Of a DNA stretch of 64,000 bases, positions 37 through 50,850 are shown piece after piece. The notes below the pieces were generated by a model that ran no database searches, was not told where the DNA came from, and saw nothing but the letters and a program-made list of their open reading frames with translations. The number at the start of each line of letters is the position of its first letter. Within the stretch, counting starts at the first letter, position 1. Source of the DNA: Azolla caroliniana (lineage: Eukaryota > Plantae > Polypodiophyta); assembly GCA_043228905.1 (NCBI GenBank), contig JBHGNT010000008.1, forward strand, positions 9,672,001 through 9,736,000, read 5' to 3'. Both the position numbers and the translations under genes were made by a program.

Positions 37-2850
37 TTATTCCTCTTCCAATCTGCCAAGGATATCCTTGGGGGCATGGGGTTGGTTTGGTTGCTCGGAA
101 GGTGGGGTTGGTGATGGAGGTTGTGTTGCCGAGTCGGGGAAGGCTGTGCCGATATGTGCGGCCTCCTCTGTTGGGACCGGTTCAGGTAGGGTCGGGGTTA
201 TAGTCAGTGGCTCGGGTGGGATGTCGAGGTCTATAGGGGCAGGTTGCCGTGGGGAGTGTCTCGGTTGGGATATGGAGGTCTGTAGGGGCAAGTTCCTCCG
301 GTCTAGCTGCCGCGGTGGGTGGCTCGGGTCCTTGCTCGTTGGTTGTGGGATCTCTGTTAATCCCGGTAGCGAGACGTTCCTCCTCGTACGCTTTGGCTTC
401 TAAGTGAAACACCATAAGATTGTCGTTGAATTCTTCTAAAAGTTGCTCGATGGCCGTGGTGTGGGAAGCTGCTAAGGTATGATATTCCTTAGTTAAGTCC
501 TCACGGAGGGCCTGGATGCTGGTGTCATCCATCTTGTAAAACCCTCAGCCCTCCTTCTTTCGGTTCTCAACATCCGCGCATAGTATGTGTAGGTCTGCAG
601 CTTGGACTAACCACCCCTGCCAGACATGGTCAAGCGTTTCTTTGATCGTTGTGGTGAATTACTGGCGATACTTGTTGATTAGGACCTTGATTTTAGTATC
701 TTCCATGCCGATGCTAGCGCGGTGAACTTCCATTGCCTCCCTTGCAGCCTTGGCTTCCGCTTGGCTTTTGCGGACTAGGAGTGCTAAATTAGCTTGATTA
801 TCTTTTGCTTTTTTGGTGATGAGCGCGATTTTCTGCTAATAGCTTGTGGTGAGCTAAGCTACAATTTCGTCCATGTCCTGTCGCCAAGCATCCCGATGTT
901 GTTCTCTGGCGACAATGTGCTCGGTTTGCAATTGGTGATACGCATCGGAAATTTTTGCTCTTTGCTCTTCCGAGATGTTCGTTGGCCATGTCTTGTAAGG
1001 CTCTTTGATGACGTCGTAATTCCTGGTTGTCCGCGAAGAGCTCTTGTTCCTGTTGGCTATTCCGCTCGGCTTCTTTGATGAAATGTTCTTTGGCCTCAAT
1101 GATAGAGACCTTAAGGGTCATCACCTCCCTTTCTCGTTCTTTGAGTGCGGCCGACCTTTCAGCAAGCTGGCGCTTGAGATCAGCTTCGCGGCTCGCGGCT
1201 TGTTCCCGTAGCTGGCCAAGACTGTTGTGGTGGTTCTGTTCTGCCAACTCGGCCAGAGCGATCTGGGCCTTTAGCTCCTCCTGGTAGTCTCGAAGGGGAG
1301 GCCCTGTCTAGGTTGCCACTTGCTGGATTCAAGGAGAGGGTTCCCTGTCTATCTGTGTAGATCGTTCCATGACGACCGGGGGTGGTGGCGTTTGCGTGGA
1401 GGATTGGTTGGATTGGGGGTGCGGGCTGATATCTGCTCGTGACGATGGCTCACTTATCTGTATCGAGTTCGTCAGTCTGCTGGCATCGACCGTGGCTACC
1501 CTGGGGTAGGTGGTGTCATCTTTGTGTGCATCGGTACCTTCAGCACCCGGGCTTGGGTTCAGAAGAGTGGCTGGTGAGACAACGTCACTCGGCGCAGGGA
1601 GGCTTAAGGGCGGCTGTTCTGGATGTTGTTGCTTGAATGTCGTCAGTTTCTCCTCGGCGGCTTGCCATAGCTCGGTAGCCCGTTTGGCTTGCTGATGCGC
1701 CGTTTTGATACATCGGGCCATGTCCTTTGCTGCCAGGGTAGTGCGGTGAGGATTGTGATATGCCTCAACTAAGGGCATGTTCAGATCTGGTAGTTCCATG
1801 AGAAGAGAAGCATTCTGTGCTTGCTTCTGTCTTCCTATCTTCTGTAAGGCTCGATCCTTGTGAGGTTCGATTTCACCCATTAGAGCGCGTTGAATCATCT
1901 TTGTTTCGGCGTGCTCCTCTGCCATACGAGTGGTAGCAGCTACTTGGGCACACGCGAGGAAATCCATTAACTCATATGTTGTGCCCAGTCGAAGTAGTGC
2001 ACTGAACTCGTATGCCTACGCAGGTAGATCTTTGTAACCGAGGACTTCCACCTATGATATCTGCGTGGTTTTTCCATGCTTGATCCTACCGACTTGGAGC
2101 CATGACTCCGCTGGTACCATGTCTGTGGAGGTTGGGCTAGCCTCTTTTGATTTTTGATGATGGTCGCCCTCGGTTGCTGTGGTTTCCTCTCGAATGATGC
2201 GGCGTCTTTTTGGCGGCTGATCCTTTGCATCCGGGCCGGTGGTGTTGGCTCCTTGGCCGTTTCCTCTTTTGTTGCCGGATGGCCGAGGGCTGCTGGCTTG
2301 TGGGCCGTGGGTTCGGTTGTGGAGAGGTCATTGATGTCCTTGGTGGTTTCTGCCGTATGGTGATATCCTCGGGGATGGGCTCCTCAGCCTCGTCCCATTC
2401 GACATGGGTCTCTATGACCGCTCGTTGTTTCTGTGTTTTTGGTGGGGCTGGTGCCGAGGCGGAAGTGGGGTTCCGAACGCCTGAGGGAGGTGGAGAAGGC
2501 GAGGGATCTTCCCATTCGTCCTGGGTTATCGCCAAAATCTTCTCCCATTGTTTCCTTGGTGGTGGTGGAGAGGTCAGGATGCGTCGAGGGGAAACCCTCG
2601 ACGCATCCTGACCTCTGCACAGGCAACAAACGCTTACTGGTTTGGAAGGATTCGAGCGCCGCGCGGACTCCTTCGCCGGTGATGATTCCCTAATCGATTT
2701 TGTTTACCTCGTATGCTTTGTTTTGTGGCATACTTGTAGGGTTGGTATGCACGAACGCGTACTCCATGAGGATGCGAGCGATTTCTCCGAAGGCCTTGTT
2801 GGATCCACCGTAGGTGCGATAGGCCTTACCAAATATGGAATACGCGATAC
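37..2850 (-). pseudogene. Extra 3' ORF of element A (globular block, helical block, coiled coils, Pro-rich tail)
   Basis: Fragments 2690-2959, 2137-2535, 1329-1967, 798-1247 and 182-532 are collinear and homologous to the extra ORF of element B, e.g. RMAEEHAETKMIQRAL vs RMAEEHAECQMIERAL. Confidence 0.8.
2569..2616. repeat. Perfect 22-bp inverted repeat with 4-nt loop
   Basis: AGAGGTCAGGATGCGTCGAGGG-GAAA-CCCTCGACGCATCCTGACCTCT read directly. Confidence 0.97.
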
Positions 2851-5124
2851 CAATTTGGGGGCGTGCATTGCATAAGTGTGCTCCCGATGGCGATATTTGA
2901 TGTGTCCACGAAGACGTGAAAAGGTTCCGACCATATCGGGGGTTGTACAATTGGGGCATGCGAGAGCATTAATTTCAAAGCTTGGTATGCCTCGTCCTCG
3001 ATTGAAGTCCATTGAAAGGGAAGTTGATGCACCGCCGCGTGTAGTGGTGTCGCGAAATCGGCCAGGTGGCATATCATCTGACTGTGCCATCTGATTTGCC
3101 CCAGAAATCGGCTGAGGGCCTTTGCGTTCGAGGGTGCGGGGCATTTAGGATGGCTTGTACTTTATCTGGATCCATGGCAATACCTTCTTGACTAACGATG
3201 TGCCCGAGTGGGTTGCCGCTTGTGACCAAGAATGCGCATTTTGCCGGTTTTAAACTTAACCGAGCTTGGCGACATCGATCAAGACAGAGACGTAACTGGG
3301 TCATGTGTTCCTATCGCTGGCCATACACGGCAAAGTCATCGAGAAAGAATTGCATGAACGCTGGGATATACTTGTTAAAAATTTCGGTGATGATGCGCTG
3401 GAACATGGCCGACGCCGTTTTCAAACCGAACATCATTACTTCTGTCACGAAAACACCCCATTCCGTGACAAATGTTGTTTTCTCCTGATCATCCGGGTGC
3501 ATTCTGATTATGTTGTAACCACTGAACCCGTCTAGAAAGTTGTAGCATTCGTGACCTGCCACCGTGTCGAGAACGCTATCCGTGAACGGGAGAGCGAATC
3601 CATCCGTGACTGTTGTAGCATTCAGCTTGCGGTAGTCGACGAAGACTCAGATTTTCCCGTTTTTCTTGGGGACGACTACGATTGGGCTTAACCATGTGGC
3701 GCGTTTTACAGGTCGTATGAACCCTACTCCGAGGAGCTTGTCTATTTCTTCCTTGACCTTAGCCGCATAATTGGGGTTCATCCGGTAGCGTCTTTGTTGA
3801 ATCGGCCGAGCGTCAGGGAGAAGATGGATCTGGTGTTGGTAGTATTGAGGGTCCAAAACCTTCATATCCGTGTAAGACCATGAGAATACATCCTGGTAAT
3901 CGGTGAGTAAGCGTATGAGGGCTACTTGTTCGCTGGCTGGTAAGTTATTAGCAATGTGTAGGGTGCGAGGGTTCTCATCCGAACCGAGGTTCAATGTCTC
4001 GAGTGTTGATGCCTTCACGACAGGAGCCTTTCCGCGGTCTGTTGTTGGGCATTGCGTAGCGTAGTGACCGGGTTGGTTGCACTTGAAGCAGGTAACGACG
4101 ACCGATTTGCTGGTGCCAGCCCGATCTCTGTGTGTGTGGGGGGGGGGAGGGTGTGATTGATTCCCGGCCTCGTGTGTTGGTGGGTTGGTCTAGGGCGCAT
4201 TCGAGATGCGCGATTCAATTTGAGGAGGGTCCCGACGACTGTTGTCGTTATTCCTTCTGTTGTTACACGATCCTCGGTGAGAGTTGCATAGATCATTACG
4301 TGAATTTCTCTGATCGTATCGGTCATCCCAATCATCATCATACCGATCATAATCGTCGTTTGCCCGATATTGGTCATCGTGATAGCGATCACGGCGGTCG
4401 TTTGATCTCTGTTGGTTGTCGTTTCGGTAACGGTCGTCGTCCTGACGGTAATCGTCATCACGGCACCACCTATCTGGTGATCGGGGTCATTGGTTATCCT
4501 GGTTTCGGTAGGATTGTCGCTCGTCCTGACGAGAGTATGTATCCTTGGGCTCGATTTGGCGAACCGGGGCTGTCGTTGTGCGGTTGAGCATATTGTATTC
4601 ACATTGCTTGACAGTGTGAGATCGCGATTGGTAGATCAGACACTAGGGCCGGTGAGGACATTCTAGGGCCAGATGGCCCGATCCCTAGCAAACTGTGCAT
4701 TGGAGGGCTTGGCGGAAGCGATTTTCCTCCTGGGGAAGGGCGCTTTGCAGCGAACTCATAGAGAAAGTCGTGTTTTGCTGTGTCCGATCGAGGGCGAGGA
4801 CGCGCGCTATGACTTGCTCGATCGTTTGGTTGGAAAAATTAGTAAGTGCAAGAGTCTTCTGTAGAGGCTCTCGTTGTCGTGTGAATCTTTTCACACTATG
4901 TAAAATAAATAAATAATAAAATAAGTACTTTATATTAGCTTAATGGCATGTTATAGAAAGATGGATGTTTGAGAAGATAAGGAAAAAAGAACTATGATTT
5001 ATCCCACATAGATAGGAAACTTAAGGCCCTGGCTATATAAGCACTTTCAGACCCCTCATTTTCATTTGTGCTAAGAGCAGTTTGGCCACTTTGTCTTCAT
5101 GGATGATGGTGACTATTTTCCCAA

Positions 5125-5290
5125 AAACTGGAAACCGGCCGATAAGCAATCCGGAACCGGCCGGGAAGCAAATTGGAACCGGCCGGGAAGCAATCTAGAA
5201 TCGGCTGGTAGGCAATCCGGAACCGTTCGGTAAGCAATTTGGAACTGGGCCGGGAAGCAAACCGGAACCGGCGGTGGAGCCGGCGAGGCA
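5125..5290. repeat. Degenerate ~22-bp tandem array (GGAACCGGCCGGGAAGCAA-like) inside the LTR
   Basis: About seven units of ccgg..aagcaa..ggaacc are visible. Confidence 0.85.
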
Positions 5291-5609
5291 GTGGGCGACC
5301 GGACGAGGCTGGACACAAACCGAACGGATAAAAGGATCATGTGGCTAATTAAAGTGAAGTGAAGAAAACTAAAGTAAAGGTCATGTGGACAGTCGCATGC
5401 AACGAAAAGAAAAAGCCATGCAACTAAAAATAGATGCAACTAAAAGAAAAAGCTAAGCAACTAAAAGTAGAGGCCATGCAACAAAAAGTGTACATGCATA
5501 TGATCAACTGGGAACTCTATATAAAATTCCATCTTTTTTTTACACTCATGCTCTCTCCATATTATCTTAATTATTTTTCTTTTCCTTCTGAGCTCCCTTA
5601 TCTTATTGA

Positions 5610-5820
5610 AGCCAAGAACCCTAAATTTCCTTACAGAAGTCATAAACCCTAATTTTCCCTACGGAAGCCATATCTTTCGTATAACCTAATTCTAATTTCC
5701 CTACGGAAGTAAAACACCCTAATTTTCCCTACAGAAACCAAAAACCCTAATTTTCCATACGGAAGCTATTGAACTCATAAACCATAATCTCTTATCAAAG
5801 CCAAGAACCCTAAATCTCTA
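5610..5820. repeat. Degenerate ~30-bp array with AACCCTAA telomere-like core inside the LTR
   Basis: Repeated a(a)accctaattttccctacggaag units. Confidence 0.8.
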
Positions 5821-6066
5821 TTGAATCCATATCTTAGTTTCTTCTAATCTATTATACTAGTAATATCCTTAAGATAAAACTTTTGTAATCCCAATCTTGG
5901 GATTGATTGTAATTTTTCTTTTCTATTTATTAATGAAATTTGCCAATCTTTCTCATTTTCCATTAACTGTTTAATATAAGCATACAAATTTGATATCTTT
6001 TGGTCGGAAGGCCCCGGGGTCTTGTCTCAAAGTTGACGTATCCTCGTCGTAATTTCACAACATCTT

Positions 6067-6084
6067 TGGTGAACCCGACGTGAA
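6067..6084 (+). promoter_or_regulatory. Primer-binding site complementary to plant tRNA-Trp 3' end
   Basis: TGGTGAACCCGACGTGAA is the reverse complement of ...TTCACGTCGGGTTCACCA, the plant cytosolic tRNA-Trp 3' end as recalled. Confidence 0.75.
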
Positions 6085-6539
6085 ACGAGGAGGCAAGTGT
6101 TGCCGATTAGGAACACGGTCCGCGGTCAGTCCTTCGACCTATACCTCCAAGTGGGTGTGGAACAACGAATAGGCGTCTAAGCGTAATGCGTAGGGGAATG
6201 TTCCCTGTAACCTATCAACGTATAAGGGAGACGGCTACAACCGAATCTTTAGCAAGGGTTACACTTACGTTCTTACATGCTCAAGTATTCAAGACACACA
6301 GTGGATTAGCCGTAGCTATACACAGAAAATCAGAGAAGATAGAATTCTTTTATGAGACGTTTCTTTACATTCCCAAATTTACACGCTCCCTCTATCAGAG
6401 GTTTTCTGCCCTTTATATACGCAGGGTCTATCTAGCCGTTCACGCTTCCTACGTGAACCGTTACATGCGTTATGATCTAATATTATTTCTTATTCCTACG
6501 CTCTTCTCCGTCGGTTACTATTCTGGCGGACAACACCTG

Positions 6540-9500
6540 GCACGTCTGTGGGACAGTGCCCTGGCACGTCGGACCCATCCCGTTAATCCTCTTCCAAAAT
6601 GGCCCGGATGTTTGGCTCTGCTGCGGCGTCCGTGTCCGAAGGCGACGTAGGGCCCATAGGTGCATCGTGGTGTGGCTCTCCTGTTTGGTCGGACTGGTTT
6701 CTCCCGGTGTCGCAGTCGTCGTGTGTGGGCGGTCCGGGTACGGTGGGCTCTTCTTGAGCTAGTGGGTTGGGCTCCACCGTCCTCGTGCTTGCAGTTGGCC
6801 GCGGTTTTGTCTCAATCGTTACTTCCTCCATGGTGTCCACCGTCTTTGTACGTATCGGGGAGTGGGGCGGCGATTCTGCCTGGCCCGCACCATTCTCCGT
6901 GTGGTCTGATGATAGCGTGGGTTCGTGCGGATGAACCTCTTCTTGGGTAGTGGTTTCGTTGTTAGTACTATGGGGAACTCTGCTTGTCGGTCCGCGCTGT
7001 TCACCGTCGTAATTTTTGGTGATCAGGCCTGAGGTTCCTCTTCTTCGGTCGTGCCCGGAATTGGCGTCGCGTTGGATTCCTTGTTTGTTCGTGTGTTGCC
7101 GGCTTGTGTTGATCTGGTGAAATAGCTCCTCATGGCTTTCACCAAATCATCTAAGAGATGTGCGAGTTCTTCAGAGTGTTGGTCCGCTAGCGCATGATAG
7201 TCTTGTGCAAGATCCTCTCGTACGGCCGCAATGCTCTCCTCATTTAGTTTATAGAACCCTCAGTTGTGTTTTCGCTGGTTCTCCCAGTCTGCACGATACG
7301 CGAGCAATTTCGCTGCTTGGGTTGCCCACGCCATCCATCCTTTGTCCAACGTCGTTTTCAATTGTGCTGTGAACCTCTCCCGATTTGTTTGGAGAAGATA
7401 CGCATGTTATCTGTGATGGCCTAGCAATGGTTGCGTGCGTCCTCCATCGACTTCTGGAGGTTTGCAATTTCTTGCTGTTTAACCGTCGCCGCTTCTTCGT
7501 ACGTGGCCTTCAGGCCCGCCCACAGTTGGGCTTCCTTTGCATGTTGTGAACCTCTCCCGATTTGTTTGGAGAAGGATATGCACGTTATCGGTGATGGCCT
7601 GGCAATGGTTGCGTGTATCCTCCATCGACTTCTAGAGGTTTGCAATTTCTTGCTATTTAACCGCCGCCGCTTCTTCGTACGTGGCCTTCAGGCCCGCCCA
7701 CAGCTCGGCTTCCTTTGCATGTTGTTCTTCTAATTTTCCCATTTCATTGTTTAGGCGGATTTCGAGCTGATGCCTTCTTTCTTGTTCGACCACCAGCTAC
7801 TCGTCGAACCATACCTTCCTTTTCTCTAATAAGGCCCGGAGTCCCGCGATTGCCGCCTCTGATTTCTTCGCGTCCTCCCGTAATTGGGTGTTTTCGTCTT
7901 TTGTCCAGATGTGTTGAGCCACCTCCGTAGCGAGTTTCTCTTCAAGGATTTTTACTACCTTCCGGCTGTTAGCCCATATCTCTTTTTCTCTGTCTGAGGA
8001 TTGGCGTAGTTCAGCTCGAAGGCGGTCAATTTCTAATTCTGCTAGTTGCACGACCCTTTTCGCTTTTAGTAGCGATGGCGGTCTGAGCCTCAATTTCTTC
8101 CTTTAAAGTGTCAATGGCGTGGTTTGGTGGCGGAGCTGCGTGTTGCGCCGTAGTCACGTTAGCTTCCAACTCTGCGATGCGTTTGTTGGCTTTTTCCAGT
8201 TCGGCTTGGGTCAGTTTCACCTTCTTCCAGACATTCTTATTTTTAATGGCCATCTCCTTGGCGCTTGTGCTGACATTTGCCAGTTCCCTATGGACTTCGA
8301 CTAGGGCCGTATTTAATGGGGGTATCTCCATCCCCACTCGGCGTACCCCGACGTTCCTCTGTCTGTCGACCCTGGCTAACCGCTCCTCATCGTTGCTCTC
8401 TCCCGTTTGTGTTAGGGCGCGCTCGATCATCTGGCATTCCGCGTGCTCTTCGGCCATTCGTTGGGAGGCTTTGACCTCTTGTGTTGCCAGGAATTCCATG
8501 AGCTCGAAAGAAGTTCCGAACTGTAATAGGGCGCTGAACTCATGGGCCGTATCCGGGATATCTGGATATGCCAAAACCTCGCTTTCCGCCGTCAATACGG
8601 CTTTCCCTCATTGGGACTGAGTCATAATGATTGGTCATGGCTCCCAGATGATTTCGAAGGTGGTATTGGGTTCCGTAGCTGCGGAGCCATGGCCTTCGGT
8701 CGGTGTCTCTATCGCCGTGGGGACATCTTTCACCAACCCCCGCCCATCTTTCCTGTCCAATCTACGCCGTTTCGGTCTGGGGCTATCCTACCGTGTTTCA
8801 GTGTGTGGCTCTGGGGCTGCTTCCACGGAACCTGCCGACCGTTCCTCCTGTGTTATCCGTGTGTCTGGCTGGTCGGTAGTTGTTGTCCTCAGGTCTTGCT
8901 GGGTGGGTTTGGGTTCCTCTTCCCACTCTGGGGCCGCTAACTCCGCTAACCTGTGTTTCGCGGATCGGGGCGGGGGCATGGGTCGGCTGGGCTACGGTGC
9001 CGGCAGGCCTCGGGGTGGGAATAGTACCATAAGGTATTGTTGTATGATCGGCTTGAGCTTTTTGCCTGCCTGATACGCGTGCAGGCCTTCCCTTAACGCC
9101 GACCCTGTGATGACCCCCCAATTGACCACACGCCCATCAAAGGTATCGATAATGATGCCCGCCTTCTGCTTGGGCATCCCATATGCGTTGACATGTACAC
9201 AACCGACTTCTAGCAAGAACTTGGTGACTTCACGGAAGAAGGGATCCGGAATCTGCTTCGTTCTTCAGGCCTTGGCGGCGGAGGAATATGACCCGAAATA
9301 TGGCTGCAGCGCCTCTGCAGAAGGGATTTCGAAATGCCTTTCTCCTAGCGATGACATGTCCAACTTCTTCTGGATGGAGAAGTTGGTGACCATGTCGATG
9401 TTAAGCTTCCTGGCGATGTCCATGGCATCCAGGTGTGGGGGTGCTTCTGCGACCCGGATGTACCCATCCAGGCGTTTCTCCACGAGCCATCGGCGTAAGG

Positions 9501-9711
9501 CAGTAGAGATGAAGATCGGCATCGCCAGAGGAGGTTCGTGGGAAGGAGACTGCTGGTTGCGGTGGGCTGAAGCTCTGTGATAGGATGGAGGAGAAGGTGA
9601 GGGGGAGGAGCGATGGGAGCGCTGATAGCTAGAAGATGGGTTTCTGTTTTGTGTAGAAAATCTTCTATTTCCTTCCTTTTGTGGCTTAGGGTTCATTGGG
9701 CGGTGAGCCAT
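6540..9711 (-). pseudogene. Extra 3' ORF of element B (about 1000 codons, disrupted)
   Basis: Own ATG at 9711, downstream of integrase on the same strand; fragments 9265-9711, 8992-9216, 8788-8979, 8026-8595, 7797-8093, 7421-7645, 6583-6840. Confidence 0.8.
7368..7722. repeat. Tandem duplication, 2 x ~177 bp, in the coiled-coil part of the extra ORF
   Basis: Units start TGTGAACCTCTCCCGATTTG at 7368 and 7545. Confidence 0.93.
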
Positions 9712-12700
9712 CGTGGTGCCACGCGTTCTTGAACTAGGAGTTTGTGAATGCCTTTAGTCGTTTTAATAGTCGCTATCTTCTCCTTTTTTTAATTTTTTTA
9801 TTTTTTCGTAACGGTTATCTACAACCTATTTTTACATTATGGTACAAGTGGGGCCGCTCATTTACAGTGCGGGTTCTCCGACTATGTCCTGTTCGGTGGT
9901 GAATGGGTTAGGTGGCATAGGGCCCAGAAAGGGAAACCCATTCACCTTTTGCCGTACTACTTCCCCGGCCAGCGTACCTAGCTGGAACGTGCCTTGTTCT
10001 GCTCCAATTATCCAGTATGGGCCGGTCCAACGGAATCGTAACTTCCCTGGCATATGGCCCATGCGAGTTTGGAAAACCAGCACCGCTCGACCCACGGCGA
10101 ACTCCTTTTCCTTTGTGTTCCGATGTCAATCCACAAACGCTTTACGTCGTTGATGTTCCTGCTCCAACACAGCCATACTGTGTACGCGTTTTTCCCCGAG
10201 TTGGAGGAGTTGGTGGACCCGTACCTCCTCCGACTTGGCTTCTGATAGTTGGTTCCGTACTTGAATTCGCAAACTGGGTACCTGAAATTCGACCGGCATC
10301 ACAGCCTCTAGTCCAAACGCTAGTCGAAACGGTGTTGACTATATGCTTGTTTTGTAGCTGGTTCTGTACACCCATAACGCACTCTGTAATTTAGTATCCC
10401 AGTCCGTTCTATTTTCATTGACGATTTTCTTCAAAATGGTCTACAACGTCTTGTTGGTGGATTCTGCTAATCCATTCACCTACGGATAATATGGCGTACT
10501 CTTCTTATGGACTACGGGGTAATGATGTGTTAGTTCCTGAACCACCATATTGAGAAAGTGACTCCCCTGGTCACTGATGAGCTCAATCGAACAACCGAAC
10601 CGGCACAAGATGTGCTCGTAAAGGAATCTGGCTGTGACGGCCGCCGTATTTTCCCGTAGTGCCTTTGCTTCTACCCACTTGGTGCAATAATCCGTGGCTA
10701 CCAATATGTATTTATTGCCCGTACGGGCTGCCGCCGATGTGAAGGGGCCCACAAAATCCAATCCCCACTTTTGGAAGGGGTCTAGCGGTAATATGGGCTG
10801 GTGTGGCATCCTTGCGCCCTCTGCGGGCTGGCCCATCCGTTGACACAAATCATACTTTCTACAATTCTCGGATGCGTCCTTCTGCGTTGTTGGCCACCAT
10901 AAGCCCACCTGCCATACTTTCCGAGCTGTAACGTTGCCCGCGTAATGGCCGCTTGCCGTAAAACTACTTCCTTCTCATCTTGACGTACCCCACGTCGCCA
11001 AATGCCGTCAGTTCCTTTGTGATATAAAACGCCTTTGACGAGGCAAAAGTGACAGCTTCGGACGACGAGTCGTTTCTTGTTGTCCGTGCATAATTGTGGT
11101 GGAGGCAGTCCCGTAGTAAAAAAGTACGTCATTTCCATAAGCCACCGGTCCAGAAAGGTCGATTCCGTTCTTTCTGCTAGTGTTGCTACCCGCAGGATAT
11201 CGGCGTCCGGAAAATCGTCGTCATCTTTCTGTACTGTTTCTCCATTCTCAAGTCTGCTCAGAAAATCCGCCACTGTATGTTGTGTCCTTGGTCGGTGCTG
11301 GATTACGAAATCGAATTCCTGGAGCAGTAACATCCACTGCACCAATTTCCCCGTCAGGGCTTGTTTCTCCACCAAATACATTAGCGTCGAATGATCCACG
11401 TGGACCGTGAATTTCCTTCCTAATAAATAATGCCGGAATTTATTGATGCTATAGATCATCCCTAGCGCCTCCCGCTCCGTTGTGGAATAGTTACACTCTA
11501 TTGTTGATAATTTGCGACTAGCGTAGTATACTAGCCGGTACCAGTTTGGTTTGGTGAGCTGCATTAGTGCACTTCCTATTGCTATGTCTGAGGCGTCGAC
11601 GAACACGTGGAATGGCTTCACCCAAACTGGTGGTTGTACGACGGGAGCCTGTGTGAGCATTATCTTAAGTGCCTCATAGGCCTTATCCTCCGTTGCAGTC
11701 CAGTGGAAAGGAATCCGATGTACGACAACATGTAATAGCGTGGCGAAGTCCGCCAAATACCGTATCATCCGACTATGCCACCATATTTGTCCTAAAAACC
11801 GGCGGAGCGATTTGGCGTTTGTCGGAGTTTTCGCTTCCGTAATCGCGGAGATCTTATTTGGATCAACCGCTATTCCCTCCATTCTAACTATATGGCCTAG
11901 GAGAGTCCCGCTGGTCACGCCGAAAGCACATATCGCAGGATTTAGGCTTAAGCGTGCGGTGTAGCAACGTTCTAGGCATAGTTGTAAGTGCGCAAAATGG
12001 TCTATTGTTCTCCCATATACCGCAAAGTCGTCTAAAAAAACTTGCATGAACGCCGGAATGTATTCCCCAAAGATCTCCGTAATTTTTCGTCTTTAGCCCG
12101 AACATCATGAAGACTGCCACATATACTCCCTAGTCCATGACAAATGTCGTCTTTTCTTAGTCCTCGGGATGCATGTGTACCTGGTTATAGCCACTGAAGC
12201 CATCTAAAAAACTGTACATCTCATGACCTGCGACGGCGTCCAATACGCTATCGGTGAAGGGTAAGGGAAATGCGTCCGTAATGGTTACGGCGTTTAATTT
12301 TTGGTAATCTACGCATACCCGTATTTTGTCGTTTTTCTTTGGAATGACCACTATCGGGCTTAACCACGTCGCTTGTTTAACTGGTCGTATGAACCCCACC
12401 TTCAGGAGCTTGTCAATTTCTTCTTTCACGCGAGTCGCGTAGTTCAGGTTCATGCTGTAGTGGCGCTGCTGGACGGGTTTCGCGTCGGTTGCTAAATTGA
12501 TCTTATGCTAATAGAACTTGGGATCTAACCCCTTCATGTACTCGTGAGCCCAAGCGAACACATCCTTATATTCCGTGAGTAGTGCGATCATCGTGTTTCA
12601 CTCGTCCAGCCTTAATTCCTTTGCGATGGAGAGGAAACGGGGCTCTGATTCCGTACCCACATTTACTTCTTCCAAGGCGGAAGTGGTGACTCGTCGTGAG

Positions 12701-14645
12701 ATCTCCATTTCCCTTTCGAATGCCGCCCGTGCTCTGCTGAGTTCCAATATGGACTCTGGGTTTGGTTCGTAGGCCTCGTCGTGGAGCATAGTGGTCGTGG
12801 CATATCCAGCTGCGGTTGCGATGACGTCGATTTCGAACAGCGGAATGATCCGTGGGTGCTCATCTGGGTATGCCTCTAATTCTGCATCGTTCACCCCAAC
12901 CAACATATTTATATCTTTTGCGTATAATGGTGTTATACCCTTGGGTTGTGGTGTGCTTCCTTCCGTAGGTACGCGAACCTTGGTGCGTCCGTGTCGGAAA
13001 CTGATACACTTGTGTTGCCAGCTCTACTTGATATTTGCTGCCCGAAGCCATGGTCTGCCGAGAAGCACTGGGTACGCCCCTGGGGCATCCAAAGCGAGGA
13101 AGACCGTCGAGATGTCTAAGCGGTGTCCGCCCACGATAATGCCTATTTTGCGAATTAACCCCAATGGTCGTACTGAGCGGGTATCTGCCATTCGGAGCTA
13201 GAATGGGCAAGCCTCCCATTCTGAAATGCCTAACTGCTCGCAATTTTTGGTGCTAATTACATTGACGCCTGAGCCGCCGTCGATTACGCATCCAGGAATT
13301 TCCTGTCTGTGTAATATTAATGTAATAGCCGGGTTGTGCTGATCCACTATCGACGGTCCATCGCTAACATCTGTAAGGTTTGTAGCAATACTCACCCCGG
13401 GTATGCCTGTTACCCGTTCTTCCATGGTCTGGCGGAAGCGTGGGACTAGCTACAGTAGTTTCTCCATGGTTAACGTTATCTCACAGCCTGCTAACGCCTG
13501 CCAAATGGGGTCTAGGACCGGTCTTTCGTCCTCTGCTCACTCCATTGTGTTCGTGGACTCCTTCCGCATTTGTTCCGTATTTGTCGCGTTTGCTTTTTCC
13601 ACCCACGCTTGGGCTTGTCGGCATACCTCGTCTTTCGCAGCCCAATCAACCGTTTTTGATTGCTGGGGTGTCGTGACTTGCTGCACTTCTGCCGTAATCG
13701 TATTGACAGCGGGCCCCTTTCACTTGCGTGTTGGGCATTGCGTGGCATAATGTCTGGGTTGCTGACAAATAAAATAATGGATGCTTGATTCACCCTTCTC
13801 GGCTCCTAGTGGTGTGTGCCGCTCCCCCGGTGCTACTTGTTCCTCGTTGTAACCGGGCATGCCAAATTGTGTTACTCGTTCCTTTGGAAAACACCTTCGA
13901 TGAGCCCACAGGCTATCGGTGTCAAGGGATCGTGTTACGTGGAAGCTTCTTCTACATGGGAAAAAGAGAGGAGAACAAGGATCGTACATGGGCTACAACC
14001 CGTTAAGTATGAACGTAGCCCGATTTACGAGTACAGGGAGAATACACAAATAGAAGTTTTGGAAAGGCGAAACTTATATTCCATAATAAAGCTTACAGTG
14101 ATTATAGTACTTGGCCTTAGCCGGAAAAAGTACGTACAGAGCTAACTCCTATGATATTACTCTCACTCAGAATGATCTAGATATCCCCCTGTCGAGGTAT
14201 GCAGACCTCGGTTTATATACTTTTTCTTCATATAGAGCCGAGCCGTCGGCTGATTGTGAGGCTCGAAACTCGGCGTTTTCCTAAACTCTACCTTCCTCAC
14301 CTACTAACCTTACCTACTGGTGTACTACATTTAATGAATTTATCTTTTTGTCCCATGGACAACAATGGTCCACATTCTAGCTAGTCCTTATTTGAGATCA
14401 CATTCTGATAATCCCTAAAATTGCCAACATATGCAAATTACATGTAGCTTTTTGCATAGCTAATTAGTTATGTCAATGACACAACTAATTGTTCCCGTTC
14501 CCATGCTTTCACCCCTTCTAGTTCTCCCCTATGTTTGGCTTGCTCTAGCTCGCTCGTTCTACTCCCCCTACAATCGACTGCTCTTCCCTTGGCCAATTTT
14601 CTTCCAATCGTTCTCTCATCTAATTCAACTTCTGTAGCTTATTCG

Positions 14646-14881
14646 GTTACCGTACGAGATGTATGGGTGATTGATAAGTGAGGGTGAAAGATGTAATGTA
14701 TGTGTAATGTTATATGATTATGAGTATGAATGTAAGTGTGAGTGTGGTGGATACAAAGAGGCGTGAGTGAGTGACTAGGTATGAACGCCCAAGGGGACTT
14801 GCACCCTTGTGTATCTACCCTTTTGTAACTATTTAACACCCCTTATGGGGAATGAATGAAGAGAAGGATCATTTCTCTCTG

Positions 14882-14924
<43 letters not shown>

Positions 14925-17025
14925 TCTTTCTCTCGCAGTACTTGTTAGCTATCGGTCTCTTGGCCGTATTTATTCTTCGATGGAATTTACCACCCACTTA
15001 GGGTTGCATTCCCAAACAGCCCGACTCGTCGACAACACCTCATCAGGTTACTTGCACCTCCGTGGGTTTGCCACCCACCAGCTCGCGTACATGTTAGAAA
15101 ACTTTTTGGCGACCACTACGGCGACCCTGCTTTGGAGACGAAGTCGAATACTAATACATGGCAAAGACTAATACGAATTGTGTGAGAATGGTGGCGATGA
15201 TGTGCGAGAAATCAAATTGACAATGTGCGGGAAATGGTGATGGTGATTAGAAGCCATCGAGGTCGAGGAATGCAACAGGGTGATGTTGTGCGAGAGGACG
15301 TCGCAAAAGGATACGCAACAGACATATGTGGAAGCGTGCGGTTAGTGACAATGTGTGTGTCCAGGAAAGCGTGGTACGAGAGACAACCAATAAGACAAAG
15401 ACGAATAGGTCGGATGGACAAACATAAATGGGGACACCGACAACCGGAGGATGGCCAAAACTGTGACAAAAATGGAAGGCCGACATAGGCAACAGAAACT
15501 AACGACGACCGGAGCGGAAGGACAATAGGGCCGGAAATGGCTAGAATGACGGACAACGACGGATCGTCGGCCAAAGCAGCAACAACCGGACAAACGACCA
15601 AAAACAGCCGGTGAAAACGGCCAGATGGACTAAAACGAACCGGAACGGACAAACGGATGGACCGAAAGACGAATGACAATGCTGGACAGAGATGACGAAA
15701 GAGGTGGCTGGAGATGGAGACGGAAACAGTGGCAGTTGTCAGACAGGGCCGACAGGACGACGAAGATGCCTGACGACAAACAACCAAACAACGGACGGAC
15801 AAATAGGCGGACAACGGAAAACAACAACTAGGAGATGGCCGAAGTGACAAAGAGGCAACCGAAAGGGTTGGATAGAGAGAGGCAGCGGTGTCGACAAAGA
15901 TGTTGGACAACGGCCAATATGTACAGCGATGGCCGAATGATGGCCAAAAGAGAGAAAGGCCGGATAGGGCTAATAGATGGCGACGACGCCGGACACTGGC
16001 CACACAGAAACGGTTGTAGAGCCAGAGACAGATGGCGACAACCGCCGACCAATGGATACTATGGAGCTTCAGAAGGAGAGGAAGCAATAACATGCATAGA
16101 ACAAGGAGAAATAGAGCAGAGAAAGAAAAAAAGAATGAAGGAGAAGAAAGGACGGAGTAGCACAAACAGAGACGAAGAGAAAGAAAGATAGGAGAAATGG
16201 AAGAAGAATTCATGGAAGACATGGAGAGACGGAGAAGGGAGCAGGAGAGACAGAGAAAGAAGAAGAAAGAGGAAAAAGAAAGAATACAGAAGACGAAAAG
16301 GTAGAAGACCGGAAGAAGAAGAACACATCAAGCAGGAAGAAATGCTTCTTGTTGCCAGCAGAATCCAAGGAGAAATAAACAATTACAATAATCATAATAA
16401 TTAAACAAAAGAGAGGGAAAAACAAAACACAAGGGCATAAGTAGTAAATTTCATAAACATAAGGGTACATAATTAAAATTTTAAAAATCAAAGGGCACCT
16501 ACAAAATTTCGAAAACTCATCAAACTAAAAGAAATGGACACGATCGACACACAACTCACAAAATCAACAAAAGGAAGATACACATACAAACAACATTTTT
16601 GGACCCATGATACCAATGTTCGTGTCGATGAAGATTCGCTGACCGACGGAGATGTTTGAGTCAAGCACTCTGATCGAGGGAGTCAATCGTTGAGAGGACC
16701 GATGGAAATTCCGGTTGAAGAAAAATTATGATTAAGGCATGTGGGATCTACATGCAAGGCACTCTTCCACTGGCGTGCCATATTGTGTTACCGTACGAGA
16801 TGTACAAGTGATTGATAAGTTAGGGTGAAAGATGTGTGTAATGTTATATGATTATGAGTGTGAATGTAAGTGTGAGTGTGGTGGATACAAAGTGTTGTGA
16901 GTGAGTGACTAGGTGTGAATGCCCAAGGGGACTTGCACCCTTGTGTATCTACCCTTTTGTAACTATATAACCCCCCTTATGGGGAATGAATGAAGAGAAG
17001 GATAATTTCTCTCTCTCTCTCTCTC
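14646..17025 (-). mobile_element. Non-coding LTR element: two ~240-bp direct repeats (14646-14900, 16786-17025) around a non-coding interior
   Basis: Both repeats begin GTTACCGTACGAGATGTA and stop at a (CT)n tract; PBS-like TGGCACGCCAGTGG on the minus strand at 16767-16780; interior is purine-rich and low-complexity. Confidence 0.7.
14923..15098 (-). pseudogene. Two fused, decayed fragments of nuclear 26S (LSU) rRNA
   Basis: Minus strand reads GAGTCGGGCTGTTTGGGAATGCA...GAGACCGATAGCTAACAAGTACTGCGAGAGAAAGATG (14923-15042) and TCTAACATGTACGCGAGCTGGTGGGTGGCAAACCC...GCAAGTAACCTGA (15041-15098); both match conserved LSU rRNA segments. Confidence 0.9.
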
Positions 17026-17229
17026 CCTTATGTTGAACCCGCTTGGGAGGGGGGTGGAGCCATTCTAGGCACCAACCCCCACCCCACAATGCTTCTCAAT
17101 GCTCATCCCATCATCATCAATTCCACAATGCTTATCTCCATCATCACAACCATCATTATCATCATGCTATCATAATCGTCATCCCTAAACCTAAAACATA
17201 CAACATATTCGACTGCCCTCTCGTCAAGT

Positions 17230-34903: not shown

Positions 34904-37900
34904 GAAGAAAGATTGAAAAACAAGGTTAAGGATGTGCCTAAAGATGGAAATGTAGGCAAATAGGGACACGTGATCTATGAGACTAACCCACGCCTTTTAC
35001 GACTATGCTTTTGGAATTGCAATGGATACCCATGGAATGCGGGATTTGGCATAGAGGAGTTCACCAATGACTCGGATATCACACTTCTTGTTGAAACATG
35101 GGAGCATGATACTCAAAGGATTCAAGGTTTAGGAAACTATAATGTACACTCTTTGATATGGAAGAAAAATCCAAGACAAAGAAGAGGACAAGGAGGGGTG
35201 GCATGTTTGATTAAGAAGGAAATAGAGAAATATGTGTCAATCATAAAAAATGATGAAAATAAATGCTACATATGGCTCAAAATAGAAACACCTAATGATT
35301 TGCCCACTTTTGTTGTTGGATGTTACATTCCTCATCAAGATTCTAACTTTTATGCTTGTTTGGATAAAGATCAACCGTTTGCCAATCTAGAAGATGATAT
35401 TGCTTATTTCAAATCCAAAGGGGAAGTTATTGTCTTTGGTGACATGAATGCTCGTACAAGAAGTTTCCAACTTGATTCACAAGAATCTTTCATGCCACAT
35501 ATCTCAAGGATGCAAGAGGATATGCAAATGTATAACCGCTCTTCTAGCGATGAAAAAGATCCGGACCAATTTGGGAAACTACTCCTACAAATGTGCAATA
35601 GTACCGGATTGCTTATTGCAAATGGTATTTCCTTATGGCCCAACACTAATGGTTTTACATGTAGAAAATACAACGGAAATAGTGTGATTGATTATGTGCT
35701 ACTTTCCGAAGGTATTTTGGATCGTATACATAAATTCTCACTTGGTGAATGGACACCGGAATCAGATCATAGGCCTTTATGTATTGATCTCAAATGTATG
35801 CATAGGTTTGATTGTGAGAAGGCTATTGAAGATAATAAACAACCGCACTTGAGCATGAACCTTAAGCGAGCACCCATGTATTCCAAGATGGTTGAGGATA
35901 TGTTACAAATGACAAAGATACAACATGGTGCCACACTAGAATGCAAATGGGAAGCTTTCAAGAAAGTCATTCTCTCATGTACAAACAAATGTTTTTCGAC
36001 CAACCGCACATCTTGGAAATGCACCAAGAAACTTAGGAAAAAATGGTTTGATAAAGAATGTCGTGAAGCTCGAAAGTGCCTTATGGTTTTGGATGTAGTT
36101 AAGGATAAAGAGAATTACCAAAAGCATTTGCATGAGTATAAAAGGCTTATTCAAAGAAAGAGAAGAATATGGGAAGTTACTCAACAATTTATCCAAACGC
36201 AAGAGAAAGCACATGCATGTGCTAAATTTTGGGGAAATCTAAAGGGAAAACGTGTTGAGAGTTATGGTGACTTAACTCTTCACGACTTGTCTATGCATTG
36301 TAAGAATTTATATGAGTTATCTCTTGCCGGAAAGATGATGTGTTATGGTTCTCTTTCACATATGCCTTCCTTCTTTACAATTGAAGATATATGCATAGGA
36401 CTTAAGAAATTGGCCTCTCGAAAGGCAAGCGATCTTCAATGTATAAAGGCTGAAATGCTCAAATGGACGGGAAAGGAAGCACATATATGGATAAGCGATA
36501 TGTTTAATGATGCATTGCAACATGGTATGCCGTACGATTGGACTACAAATTGGATCAAACCTTTACATAAAGGTGGAGATATAAATAATGTAAACAATTA
36601 TCGAACCATCATGGTTGGCTCATTAATGGCAAAACTATTTGGATGTATAATGGAATCAAAGATAAGTGTATGGGCTGAAAAAAGTGGTAAGAGAGCTTAT
36701 GGACAAGCTGGCTTTCGGAAACACCATAGCACCATTGATCACCTTATCACCCTTCGAGTATTAATGGAGGAAAGTCGCCTTAGAGGTAAAGGTTTATATT
36801 GTTGCTTTGTAGACTTCAAGAAAGCTTTTGATATGGTACCTCGTGAGCATCTTTGGAGGCGAATGGAAGAACTTGAGGTGCCAAGTGAATATATGCTTGC
36901 AATTTCCCGAATTTATGAGAAGGTTATATGTTGTGTGCGCATGAAAGATAAACTTTCAGATTTTTTCAAAAGCACTATTGGTGTTAAGCAAGGATGCCCA
37001 CTCTCACCAACACTATTTGGTCTATGCATTGATGAATTGGAAGAAATGGTTACCAAGTTTGCAAAGGAAGAATGTGTTGAAGAAGTTGCCATTGGGAATG
37101 TTGTGATTATGCTTTTGCTATATGCAGATGACGTAGTGCTTTTTGCAAATACTTTAGGAGATGCACAAAAGCTTATGAAGGCATTGGAAAAATTTTGCAT
37201 GCATACTAAATTAAGTGTCAATAGCTCTAAAACAAAGATTATGCTTGTGAAGAGCCAAAAAAGAGATAAACCATGCATTATGTACAACAATGAGCCACTT
37301 GAATGTGTGGAAAGCTTCAAATATCTTGGCCTTGAAGTTCCTTCAAATCATAGATGGAATGAATGTGCTACACGCCGCTTAGAGGCGGGCAAACGAGCAT
37401 ACTATGCATTTGAGAACACATGCAATCTTGGAGATATTAAGTGTTGGGTCCTCAAGAAATATCTTTTTGACACTTTGGTGACACCAGTTCTTCTCTATGG
37501 GGTGGAAGTATGGGGCGGTAGCATCCCTAAGTCTATGTGGAAAGAGTTTGAAAATGTCCAAAAGCATTTTCTTACCAAGTTTCTACAAGTTAAGAAACAA
37601 ACGCCCTACACCCTCCTCCTCCTTGAGACAGGATCGCTTCCCATTGAGATCATGGCCATGGAAAGGGTTGTTGAATACATGCTTAAGGTTCAAAAAAGTC
37701 CCTCACATCGACTTCCTAGAATTGCGTGGGAAGCAAGCAAAAATATCCAAAAGACGCATAAAAGCAAATTTTTGTGTTCCGGTTGGATGCAAGATATAGA
37801 AAAATGGTTTGGTAGATGGGATGTGAGACACTTGCTTCATGATGCATCATTAGATTCCTCTGTAAATGAGGCATTTTTGCAACGCCAATGTATCATGACA

Positions 37901-40900
37901 TGGGACAAATGTGGAGGCTCACGCTTCACACATTATACTACACATGTTGCACCTAACTACAAAACCATATTCTTTGCGGAACGGGGAAATCGTACACATC
38001 CATACATGTTAGAGCCCATACCGTTATCTGCCATTCGAACCATTGCTTCCATGCGACTTAGCTCACATGCATTGCGATGTGAAACAGGGCGTTGGGGTAC
38101 AAGTGATGAGAGTGGTCGGTTATGCACACTTTGCCCTAAACAAGTTCGCGAGTCTGAGTATCACACTTTGATACAATGCTCTGCCTTTGATCATATTCGA
38201 CCATGCTTTCCACATCTCTTCGATCGAGCCCAATCTTTGCATGAATTCCTCTCACAACCACAATGTGCACTCTCGATTGCAACATTCATTGGTAAAGTTC
38301 TTGAACATCGAGAGTCACTACTCACTTTCACACGTATCACGTGAAATGTAATATTTTTGGTCTCATAGGTCATATTTGATCTCCGAAGACGATAATATAA
38401 TCTATCTATCTATCTATCTATCTATCTTTGTGTGTGTCTATCTTGCATATGCGCATACACAGGTTCTTCATCACGAATGTTGCTTGCACTTCCGCATTGA
38501 CGACCTTGTCCCCAACATTGGGTATCAGAGCATTGGAGGTTCTTCAACACGTTGCCGGCCATCATAGTACACCACACAACATTCCGTTTTCGTTTTCTTT
38601 GAAGAACAGAGAAGGGAGAAGAAGAAAAAAAAAACAAAAAGCTCGCATCTCACTATGTTAAATCACAAATTGGAGTAAACCAGTCGGATGTACTCTGTTC
38701 CTGTGATTGTAACTGCTTGAGGGGAGCTCCTTGAGCAACAACTGACCCAATCGTGCTTCATTCGGTTAACCAACATCCGAATAGGTCACCAGACGTTATT
38801 CACCCGCTTGTTGTAACCACCCGCTACAGATTGGTCTCTAGGCAATAACCAAATTCATGCTTCACTCGGCTGATCGACATTCTGGAGGATCAGTTGGATC
38901 CGTCCCTCTCATCGCTGCAGTCATCCGAAGCAGAATCGGCCCAAACAATCAGTTTCGGTAATCGGTATTCGGCATACGATCAGAAGCTAACCGGGCTAAC
39001 TCTGACTCGGCAACATTCAGGAAGACCAGCCGGTTTTGTCCCTCAAGTTACCGGAGTCACTCCGAGCAAGTTCAGCAACAAGTACCCGAAACCAAACCGA
39101 CTCGGGTTCAAAACCGACTAGAACGATATCGGGTGAGCCAACCGGCTGCACCCCACTAAGGTTCGTAGTAAACTCCGAACCGAGTCTTACCAACCGAAAC
39201 CGAAGCATATGGCATCAACATTCGGCTCATTGGAGATGAGTCTAAGGAGGTTCAAGGGCTTGAACTTCAACTTCTCGAAGGATCAAAGTCAAGGCTCAGA
39301 TAGACCCGATTGAGAATGAAAATTCCCGAGAAGCATGCAAGGCAAACGAGTGGCAGAAGTTGGATAGAATTGTCCATGCCACGATTCGGATGCACTTGTC
39401 GGAGTCAGTGTACTTCACAGTGCAATCATGCTCGACATCATTTGAACTTTGGAAACCACTGTCGGAAATGTATGAAAAGAAGGTCGCGGCAACGAAGATG
39501 TATCTGATCCGGCGCCTCTACAACTTGTGGATGAAAGAGTCCGATTCGGTTTAGGCACACCTCAACGAGTACGAAAGCATAAGCTCCCAAATCTCGTCTC
39601 AGGGGGCGGCAATCGAGGATGAACTCAGAGCAATGATACTCGTGAGTAGTCTTCCCTCTTCATGGGAAACTTTCGTTACAACCGTGTGCAATGCTTCAAT
39701 AGCTACCGTTAAGTACTCCGAAGTCATGAGCGCAATCCTGACTGAAGCAGGTCGGAGAAAGTCTTTTGCCAAAGACTCGGCAAATGAAGCTTACGTAGTA
39801 CAACGTTCGATCAACCGATCGAACAACCGGGGAAGAAGTTCTTCCCGACCGCCGAACACGAAGCCGGAGCAAGTCCTGAGACAACCAAATCTACAACTAA
39901 TGCAAGAAACCGGGACACATCAAAGCCGATTGTCGGTCACTGAAAGCAAAAATCGACAAAGCTCTGAGAGCGGATCAGAAGAGTAGCCGGCATGAGTAGG
40001 TCAAGTACATCGGCTTTTTAGCCGAAATTTTGACGATCGACCCGAACATACTTTCCATAGACAACCCAATCGAATAAGAAGTTCTGCTCTTGGACTCGGG
40101 TGCATCGTATCATGTGACACCTCACTGATCTCAGATTTGGCAATACTTGGACCGGAACCCCGACTCAGTTCGAGTCGGAAACTCGCTACACTGTGCTATA
40201 ATCGGAATCGGCACCGTAGACCTCAACCTTTCGGGCGGCTCTACATTCGTACTCAAAACGTCTGACACGTTCCTGAGCTCTCAAGACCCCTGATCTCAAT
40301 TGGACAGCTTGACGAAGCTGACATCCGTGCCAGATTCTCATCAGGAGGGTGGACACTCCACAAAGGGAACCTCCTTCTTGCTCGAGTACCAAAGGTACAA
40401 TCCTTGTATCCTTTATATGTCACACTCAAGGAAGGTGACTTATTTTTGGTTGATATCCCCGTGTCATTGTTATGGCACAGACGACTTGGACATCTCAGCA
40501 AGGCCGGCATAATGCACCTATCTAGAGCTGGTTACATCCCCAAACTCTCCTTCTCGGATCACCAATTCTGCGAGCATTGCCAGTACGGCAAACAGGTACC
40601 CACATTACACCTGACATCAGCACCAAGAGAATCAAGTCCCCTCGATTTGGTCCACTCGAACGTTTGTGGCCCAATGCCACATCAGTCTCTCAGTGGTGCT
40701 TCGTACTTCGTTAGTTTTATTGACGATTCGACTCGGAAGGTGTGGGCTTACCCCATCAGAACCAAAGATCGGGTGTTCTCGATCTTCTCCGAATGGCTTG
40801 CAATGGTCGAAAATTAGACTGGTCAGAAACTGAAATGTCTCCGAACCGACAACGGAGGAGAATTCAAGTCTGAAGAATTCGTCAAATTTTGCCAGGAAGA

Positions 40901-50762: not shown

Positions 50763-50850
50763 CACACTCGGAGAGCCCGACACTTTCTAAAATGTGGAAA
50801 GATGGAATGGAATAGGCAAATAATAATGATAACAACGCCATTGTGTGATT

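What the first reader, a model, noticed from the sequence alone, without database searches (positions are those of the whole stretch)
37..9711. Large non-env extra ORF conserved between two divergent Athila-like Gypsy elements
Seen: elements A (37-2850) and B (6540-9711) each carry a roughly 1000-codon sense ORF 3' of pol, with three collinear conserved blocks separated by unalignable Pro/Gln-rich linkers. Block 1 is FGEIARILMEYAFVHTNPTSMPQNKA..ID*GIITGEGVRAALESFQTSKRLLP vs FREVTKFLLEVGCVHVNAYGMPKQKA..VNWGVITGSALREGLHAYQAGKKLKP. Block 2 is EVLGYKDLP..YEFSALLRLGTTYELMDFL..RMAEEHAE vs EVLAYPDIP..HEFSALLQFGTSFELMEFL..RMAEEHAE. Block 3 is WLVQAADL..ADVENRK..GFYKMDDTSIQALREDL vs WATQAAKL..ADWENQR..GFYKLNEESIAAVREDL. 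No hydrophobic transmembrane stretch is visible. Known: Athila/Tat elements carry extra ORFs of mostly unknown function. Inference: protein-level conservation despite DNA divergence implies past purifying selection on an accessory protein, for example an anti-silencing, chromatin or particle-scaffold factor, that I cannot assign to a named family.
Basis: partly seen in the sequence, partly recalled or inferred. Interest (0 to 1): 0.8.

Follow-up and report, generated by a model that had tools for sequence, protein, structure and literature searches.

The report
VANC-fold accessory gene in plant retrotransposons
Two broken copies of a plant jumping gene each carry the remains of a conserved extra gene of about 1,000 codons; its first domain is predicted to fold like VANC21, a transposon protein that removes host silencing, so it likely works on the element's own DNA in the nucleus and not as a viral envelope.

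The parts
37..2845 (-). Element A extra ORF remnant (residues 78-1011 of its closest stop-free relative P0008), with stops and frameshifts
   Evidence: tblastn of P0008: 67-86% identity in five collinear segments; translation
2595..2845 (-).
   Evidence: P0008 78-159 at 84%
1640..2051 (-). A: block 2, helical, conserved in families A and B, absent from family C protein P0060
   Evidence: limits approximate
330..680 (-). A: block 3, conserved in all three families
   Evidence: limits approximate
2846..4874 (-). A: gag and RT-RNase H remnant; protease region and integrase deleted
   Evidence: matches to L034 polyprotein residues 226-494 and 836-1226; 94.6% DNA identity to L001 in RT
6583..9711 (-). 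Element B extra ORF, decayed; upstream ATG at 9711, conserved domain-1 Met at 9522, ends ILEED-stop
9013..9522 (-). B: complete domain 1 (~170 aa), predicted VANC21-like fold
   Evidence: 60% to P0017, 34% to P0210; models of P0017 and P0210 match 9LNK/9LNJ
8758..8772 (-). B: basic KRRRL motif in linker 1, NLS-like (motif class recalled)
   Evidence: same motif type in P0009, P0010, P0013, P0014, P0015, P0060
8248..8580 (-). B: block 2
   Evidence: 47% to A over 111 aa
7400..8075 (-). B: charged, proline-poor, coiled-coil-like segment, with a 178-bp tandem duplication at 7368-7725
   Evidence: profile gives only weak coiled-coil protein hits, E>=0.02
7035..7397 (-). B: block 3
   Evidence: P0008 814-943 at 38%
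9862..13812 (-). B: end of gag, protease, RT, RNase H, integrase (decayed); most of gag missing
   Evidence: L034 polyprotein residues 455-1795; Pfam RT_RNaseH
13850..14364 (-). LTR (14364-13867) and PBS (TGG at 13863) upstream of B; resembles family-A LTRs, not B's 3' LTR
6536..6556 (-). Inverted PBS-like site where a polypurine tract is expected; B's 3' LTR starts at 6535

Best explanation
The ORF is a conserved accessory gene of a high-copy plant Ty3/gypsy lineage, decayed in both window copies, whose N-terminal domain is predicted to have the VANC21/plant-mobile-domain fold and which likely acts in the nucleus as a DNA-binding chromatin factor that would help its own element resist silencing. 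Shown: position after integrase, three-family conservation, purifying selection, no TM helix, domain layout. Predicted: fold of domain 1. Inferred: the gene is translated from its own ATG (probably a subgenomic RNA); the basic linker motif takes it to the nucleus; domain 1 binds element DNA through conserved Lys/Arg residues; the charged helical half oligomerises or scaffolds; the conserved acidic C-terminal motif recruits a host chromatin or transcription partner.
Confidence: 0.45

Rival explanations
1. Same fold, other job: the protein tethers the integration complex or cDNA to chosen chromatin (a targeting factor that replaces the chromodomain these elements lack).
For: No chromodomain in the polyproteins of L034 and L007; DNA-binding-type fold, long helical arm and NLS-like motif fit a tether; no target-motif arrays inside the element.
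Against: The only solved relative acts on DNA methylation, not integration; no insertion-site data were examined.
Confidence: 0.2
2. The protein binds the element's RNA or particle (export, packaging, or support for the unusual second-strand priming site) and is a scaffold, not a chromatin factor.
Against: Best structural match is a DNA-bound protein; no RNA-binding family matched.
Confidence: 0.15
3. The VANC21 likeness is a chance helical arrangement; domain 1 is a new fold or an unrelated one, and the mechanism is something else.
Against: Two models from families 33% identical pick the same target over the whole domain, one with a gap of 3.2 Z units; the target is a plant transposon accessory protein among 48,161 chains; the Atlas names plant-transposon families for P0008.
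Confidence: 0.17
4. It is an env-like membrane protein for cell-to-cell movement.
For: Position (sense, between pol and 3' LTR) is that of env-like ORFs.
Against: No hydrophobic 19-mer above 1.31; no match among viral structures; NLS-like motifs.
Confidence: 0.03

Closest known systems
VANC21 of the Arabidopsis VANDAL21 Mutator-like DNA transposon (PDB 9LNJ/9LNK; PMC5735166, passages read)
   Same: Predicted fold of domain 1 over its whole length; transposon-encoded accessory protein with conserved domain plus variable regions; a coiled-coil part is predicted for VANC21 too (PMC13547354).
   Different: Here the host element is an LTR retrotransposon; domain is ~170 aa against ~230-240 aligned residues' span in VANC21; 7-9% identity, no DUF1985 HMM hit; no tandem target arrays found; DNA binding and demethylation untested.
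Plant mobile domain proteins (PF10536): Gypsy-encoded PMD-A and host MAIN/MAIL (PMC5418596 passages; bioRxiv 2024.09.27.615353 passages)
   Same: Gypsy extra-ORF location; PMD-C is reported to resemble VANC's DUF1985 in structure, so domain 1 likely shares that fold.
   Different: No PF10536 hit; PMD is described as angiosperm-only (PMC8616336), whereas this host is likely a fern (from earlier notes, not tested here); much shorter domain followed by ~800 aa of unrelated sequence.
Athila sense 3' extra ORFs with ATHILA (PF03078) / Transposase_32 (PF20167) domains (PMC6317226 passages and one supplement table; PMC11728184 passages)
   Same: [quoted passage not shown]
   Different: No HMM hit; protein about twice as long as the 487-aa sunflower example; PBS type differs; no polypurine tract.
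Retand antisense ORFs with Transposase_28 plus Smc-like coils (PMC11963269, passages)
   Same: Globular domain plus long coiled-coil-like part, predicted DNA binding, found in nearly all family members.
   Different: Retand ORFs are antisense, the elements carry archaeal RNase H, and there is no PF04195 hit here.

Membership tests
VANC (DUF1985) anti-silencing proteins | DUF1985 profile match | tested here: not met
   0 of 58 and 0 of 66 members hit it at E<=1
VANC (DUF1985) anti-silencing proteins | VANC21 core fold | tested here: inconclusive
VANC (DUF1985) anti-silencing proteins | Encoded by a VANDAL (Mutator-like) DNA transposon | tested here: not met
   Gene follows Gypsy integrase in 27 of 33 loci
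VANC (DUF1985) anti-silencing proteins | Target motifs amassed as tandem repeats in the element's non-coding DNA | tested here: inconclusive
   No such arrays in 9 loci by TRF; no enriched 8-9-mer in 5 elements or fragments; only short U3 duplications with CCGAGT. The motif is unknown, so dispersed sites could be missed
VANC (DUF1985) anti-silencing proteins | Sequence-specific DNA binding and loss of DNA methylation in trans | not testable with these tools
   Needs DAP-seq/EMSA and methylomes
Plant mobile domain (PF10536) | PMD profile match | tested here: not met
Plant mobile domain (PF10536) | PMD fold | tested here: inconclusive
   No predicted-structure library of cellular proteins on hand; link is indirect through VANC21
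ATHILA ORF1 / Transposase_32 (PF03078, PF20167) | Profile match | tested here: not met
ATHILA ORF1 / Transposase_32 (PF03078, PF20167) | Remote homology by language-model features | tested here: inconclusive
   0.88 and 0.85 for P0008 1-175; not repeated for P0017
Athila lineage (REXdb) | Gypsy domain order, no chromodomain, no archaeal RNase H | tested here: met
   Pfam on L034 and L007 polyproteins: gag, zinc knuckle, RT, one RNase H, integrase only
Athila lineage (REXdb) | PBS for tRNA-Asp, -Asn or -Ala (88% of Athila) | tested here: inconclusive
   PBS reads TGGCA(C/T)GCCCGG; assigned to tRNA-Arg from recall and earlier notes, not aligned to a host tRNA here
Athila lineage (REXdb) | Position in the RT-RH-INT tree | not testable with these tools
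   Reference FASTA supplement too large to read
Tat lineage (TatI-III, Ogre, Retand) | Additional archaeal RNase H domain | tested here: not met
   definition in PMC6317226
Env-like proteins | Transmembrane helix | tested here: not met
   Max KD19 1.31

The most novel reading that the evidence does not exclude
A Gypsy lineage of seed-free plants encodes its own VANC-type, DNA-binding anti-silencing protein, and the VANC/PMD/Athila-ORF fold is an ancient retrotransposon invention that predates flowering plants and later gave rise to both the host MAIN/MAIL regulators and the VANC proteins of DNA transposons.
Probability: 0.25. Interest if true: 0.8.

Novelty: new variant of a known kind. Interest (0 to 1): 0.55.

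Why it matters
What the extra ORFs of plant Gypsy elements do is a long-open question (PMC7264820, PMC6317226). A structural link to VANC21, the one member with a known activity and a solved DNA complex, makes a direct test possible: DNA binding of a 170-aa domain and methylation at cognate elements. It also bears on the origin of the plant mobile domain, which Ikeda et al. left 'fully open' between a gene-first and a Gypsy-first history and which a 2026 atlas reads as VANC captured from MAIN. A member invisible to Pfam in a high-copy lineage of a likely fern would push the fold well below angiosperms and favour a retrotransposon origin. If the function holds, it could help explain how such families reach very high copy number in heavily methylated genomes.

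Tried and rejected
Pfam on window segments, full-length relatives and two alignments: only weak coiled-coil-type hits. PDB by sequence: nothing for P0001, one non-significant TALE row for A1, weak coiled-coil proteins for A3. Atlas with P0017: unrelated bacterial and phage clusters at 0.79-0.82. Homodimer prediction for P0008 775-920: no answer, score 0.00, no evidence either way. My simple heptad Fourier score did not single out the charged segment, so 'coiled coil' stays a likeness. TQT motifs (LC8-type, recalled) occur 1-3 times in linker 2 of family A (3 in P0008, shuffle P 0.017) but not in P0060 or that linker of B: lead only. CpG observed/expected is 0.8-1.3 in these elements but also about 1.0 in two Copia elements of the window, so it does not single out this lineage. 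Expression: no RNA holder listed; one contig of a run only guessed to be RNA covers 6329-6792 of a B-like copy at depth 44 and stops inside the LTR, and one 162-nt contig touches A's ORF; neither shows transcription. Viral contigs held no relative of B's RT-RH. The VANC21 structure paper and Sasaki 2022 are not held, so DNA-contact residues could not be mapped. Literature searches that found no report of this protein or of a VANC-fold ORF in a fern retrotransposon; supplements of those papers were not searched, and the REXdb eORF tables and Steinbauerova 2011 were not seen and may list related ORFs.
Full report
1. Observation. [quoted passage not shown] Neither region is an open frame: the longest stop-free pieces are 228 aa in A and 193 aa in B. 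B runs from an ATG at 9711 to a stop at 6583, with stops, frameshifts and a 178-bp duplication. In A, a deletion joins RNase H at 2847 to residue 78 of the conserved protein, so integrase and half of the first domain are gone. A and B are homologous at the protein level: block 2 is 47% identical over 111 aa (E 7e-28) and block 3 is 37% over 123 aa (E 2e-23), while blastn finds one 49-nt match. In the three blocks identity is 60-67% at codon position 2 and 26-32% at position 3, and synonymous sites are saturated. That is the pattern of long purifying selection on a protein.

2. Relatives. The B N-terminal half found 3 proteins of 978-1,075 aa among 7,990 long candidates and 389 representatives at E<=0.001. 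An alignment search found 187 proteins; the 120 listed are all unnamed, without Pfam domains, from ENA assemblies. Seventy-six near-complete copies of domain 1 fall into three families of 28, 12 and 31 sequences plus 5 singletons, 34-42% identical between families. P0008 is the closest stop-free relative of A (67-86% by segment). A scan of metagenome contigs gave 83 relatives, 80 kept as loci. L034 holds a whole element layout: LTR, PBS, a 1,797-codon gag-pol frame, a short spacer, a 1,194-codon open stretch, LTR start. In 27 of 33 loci with enough upstream DNA the gene starts 483-582 nt after integrase. Two cautions. The loci come from a small set of related assemblies, so they show family depth and not host range. 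The stop-free contigs mostly have high coverage (L034 151x, L012 27x) and low-coverage ones carry up to 9 stops, so 'intact' sequences may be collapsed repeats and not single live copies. In sequencing runs the family is very abundant and covers pol and the extra ORF alike (31,371 contigs of X1 laid on B). Of 382 places where most contigs differ from the window, 261 have G or C where the window has A or T, which fits decay of an old methylated copy (inference). Two coded organisms hold it. The host is a land plant; 'fern' comes from earlier notes on this genome and was not tested here.

3. Selection. Pairwise Nei-Gojobori dN/dS among natural copies, keeping pairs with dS 0.1-1.5: domain 1, 0.15 (1127 of 2609 pairs, none >=1); linker 1, 0.32; block 2, 0.12 (144 of 377); linker 2, 0.53; charged segment, 0.26 (58 of 91); tail, 0.47; block 3 (residues 830-915), 0.09 (34 of 66). 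The loci were found with two domain-1 peptides, but the parts outside them give 0.16 and 0.21 (15 of 1244 pairs >=1 in the latter). Gag, RT and integrase give 0.03-0.07. Pairs are not independent, and protein-guided alignment lowers linker values.

4. Anatomy (P0008 numbering): optional Ser/Arg/Pro-rich leader; domain 1 (1-170, globular); linker 1 (Pro/Ser/Thr-rich, with a K/R-R/K-R-L/I basic motif in members of all families); block 2 (340-490; absent in family C); linker 2; a proline-free charged segment (605-850); block 3 (28 columns invariant in the 14-row alignment lie at 837-910); an acidic tail ending in a conserved hydrophobic-acidic motif. No 19-residue window exceeds hydropathy 1.31, so it is not env-like.

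6. What is known. VANC21 binds a 9-nt motif in non-coding parts of VANDAL21, where targets build up as tandem repeats, and removes DNA methylation (PMC5735166, passages). VANC resembles MAIN/PMD-C in predicted structure (PMC13547354, abstract, passages and section 10; bioRxiv 2024.09.27.615353, passages). PMD-A is encoded by Gypsy elements of angiosperms, and its ancestry was left open (PMC5418596, passages); a review calls PMD angiosperm-only and suggests TEs may use it against silencing (PMC8616336, passages). PMD, Transposase_28 and Athila ORF-1 mark the extra ORFs of Ogre, Retand and Athila (PMC6317226, passages and one supplement table). A sunflower Athila ORF has Transposase_32 and a predicted NLS (PMC11728184, passages). 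Retand ORFs join TRP28 to Smc-like coils (PMC11963269, passages). PMC7264820 (first third read) reviews these ORFs as of unknown function. The VANC21 structure paper was seen only as a reference and in a meeting report. Ten searches of the held library found no report of this protein or of a VANC-fold ORF in a fern element. Four unreviewed notes of this scan report VANC-fold genes inside the LTRs of Gypsy elements in another genome, likely a liverwort; I saw them after my own fold results and did not test them.

7. Mechanism. Most likely the protein is a nuclear factor that binds its element's DNA through domain 1 and uses the helical half and acidic tail to oligomerise and recruit host chromatin machinery, keeping the LTR active (0.45). 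Nine Lys/Arg columns are conserved across families; whether they face DNA was not tested. Against a strict VANC mode: no tandem target arrays and no enriched 8- or 9-mer, short non-coding regions, and a slowly evolving domain. Rivals are an integration tether (0.2), a chance fold likeness (0.17), an RNA or particle scaffold (0.15) and env (0.03).

8. Lineage. The polyproteins have gag, zinc knuckle, RT, one RNase H and integrase, with no chromodomain or second RNase H, so they are neither chromoviruses nor Tat. The PBS differs from the Athila types, and an inverted PBS replaces the polypurine tract (found before by this scan). 'Non-chromovirus, unplaced' is safer than 'Athila'.

9. Verdict. 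Real, selected, decayed here. It likely works like a VANC/PMD-fold factor, but fails the sequence membership tests for VANC, PMD, ATHILA and Transposase_32. New variant of a known kind; interest 0.55. If DNA binding and demethylation are shown and the host is confirmed as a seed-free plant, it would be the retrotransposon counterpart of VANC and evidence for a pre-angiosperm, Gypsy-borne origin of the fold (probability 0.25, interest 0.8).

Noticed in passing
window 6536-6556 (-); L007, L009, L012, L021, L022, L026, L034, L035, L060, L069: No polypurine tract before the 3' LTR. An inverted PBS-like site ending GTGCCA lies 2 nt before the LTR start in window B and in 10 of 11 loci that reach the ORF end (L034 and L035 are near duplicates). 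Earlier notes on this genome describe the same as possible tRNA priming of both strands; one paper search found nothing.
   Followed up: partly
window 13867-14364 vs 6535 onward (-): The LTR upstream of B resembles family-A LTRs (68-87% to L074, L012, L016) and does not match B's 3' LTR; most of gag is missing just after the PBS, so 'element B' is likely a recombinant or deleted copy.
   Followed up: partly
window 14931-15189 (-), between repeats 14640-14894 and 16781-17028: A fragment of 28S rRNA (Rfam LSU_rRNA_eukarya, E 3.8e-16) sits next to one of two ~255-bp repeats (91% alike); the other is followed by a PBS-like site at 16788. Looks like a non-coding LTR element carrying an rDNA piece.
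   Followed up: partly
P0060 (family C): A third family keeps domain 1, block 3 and the C-terminal motif but lacks block 2, so block 2 is a separable module.
   Followed up: partly
L001-L080, region upstream of domain 1: 22 of 33 loci with enough upstream DNA have an in-frame ATG 69-124 codons before the domain-1 Met (63 codons in B), giving a Ser/Arg/Pro-rich leader; either ATG may be used.
   Followed up: partly
window 6060-6100: A second tRNA-end-like stretch ending CACCA lies 4 nt before a TGTTG on the - strand; tRNA-Trp by recall; it may belong to another element.
   Followed up: no
window 4875-6000: AT-rich insert with 22-, 21/37- and 28-bp tandem repeats that cuts A's gag at 4874; unassigned.
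   Followed up: no
window 34964-38344 (+); 49581-50786 (-); 62844-63593 (+): A stop-free 1126-aa LINE ORF (endonuclease + RT), a bHLH-type exon, and a 249-aa ORF with no Pfam match.
   Followed up: no
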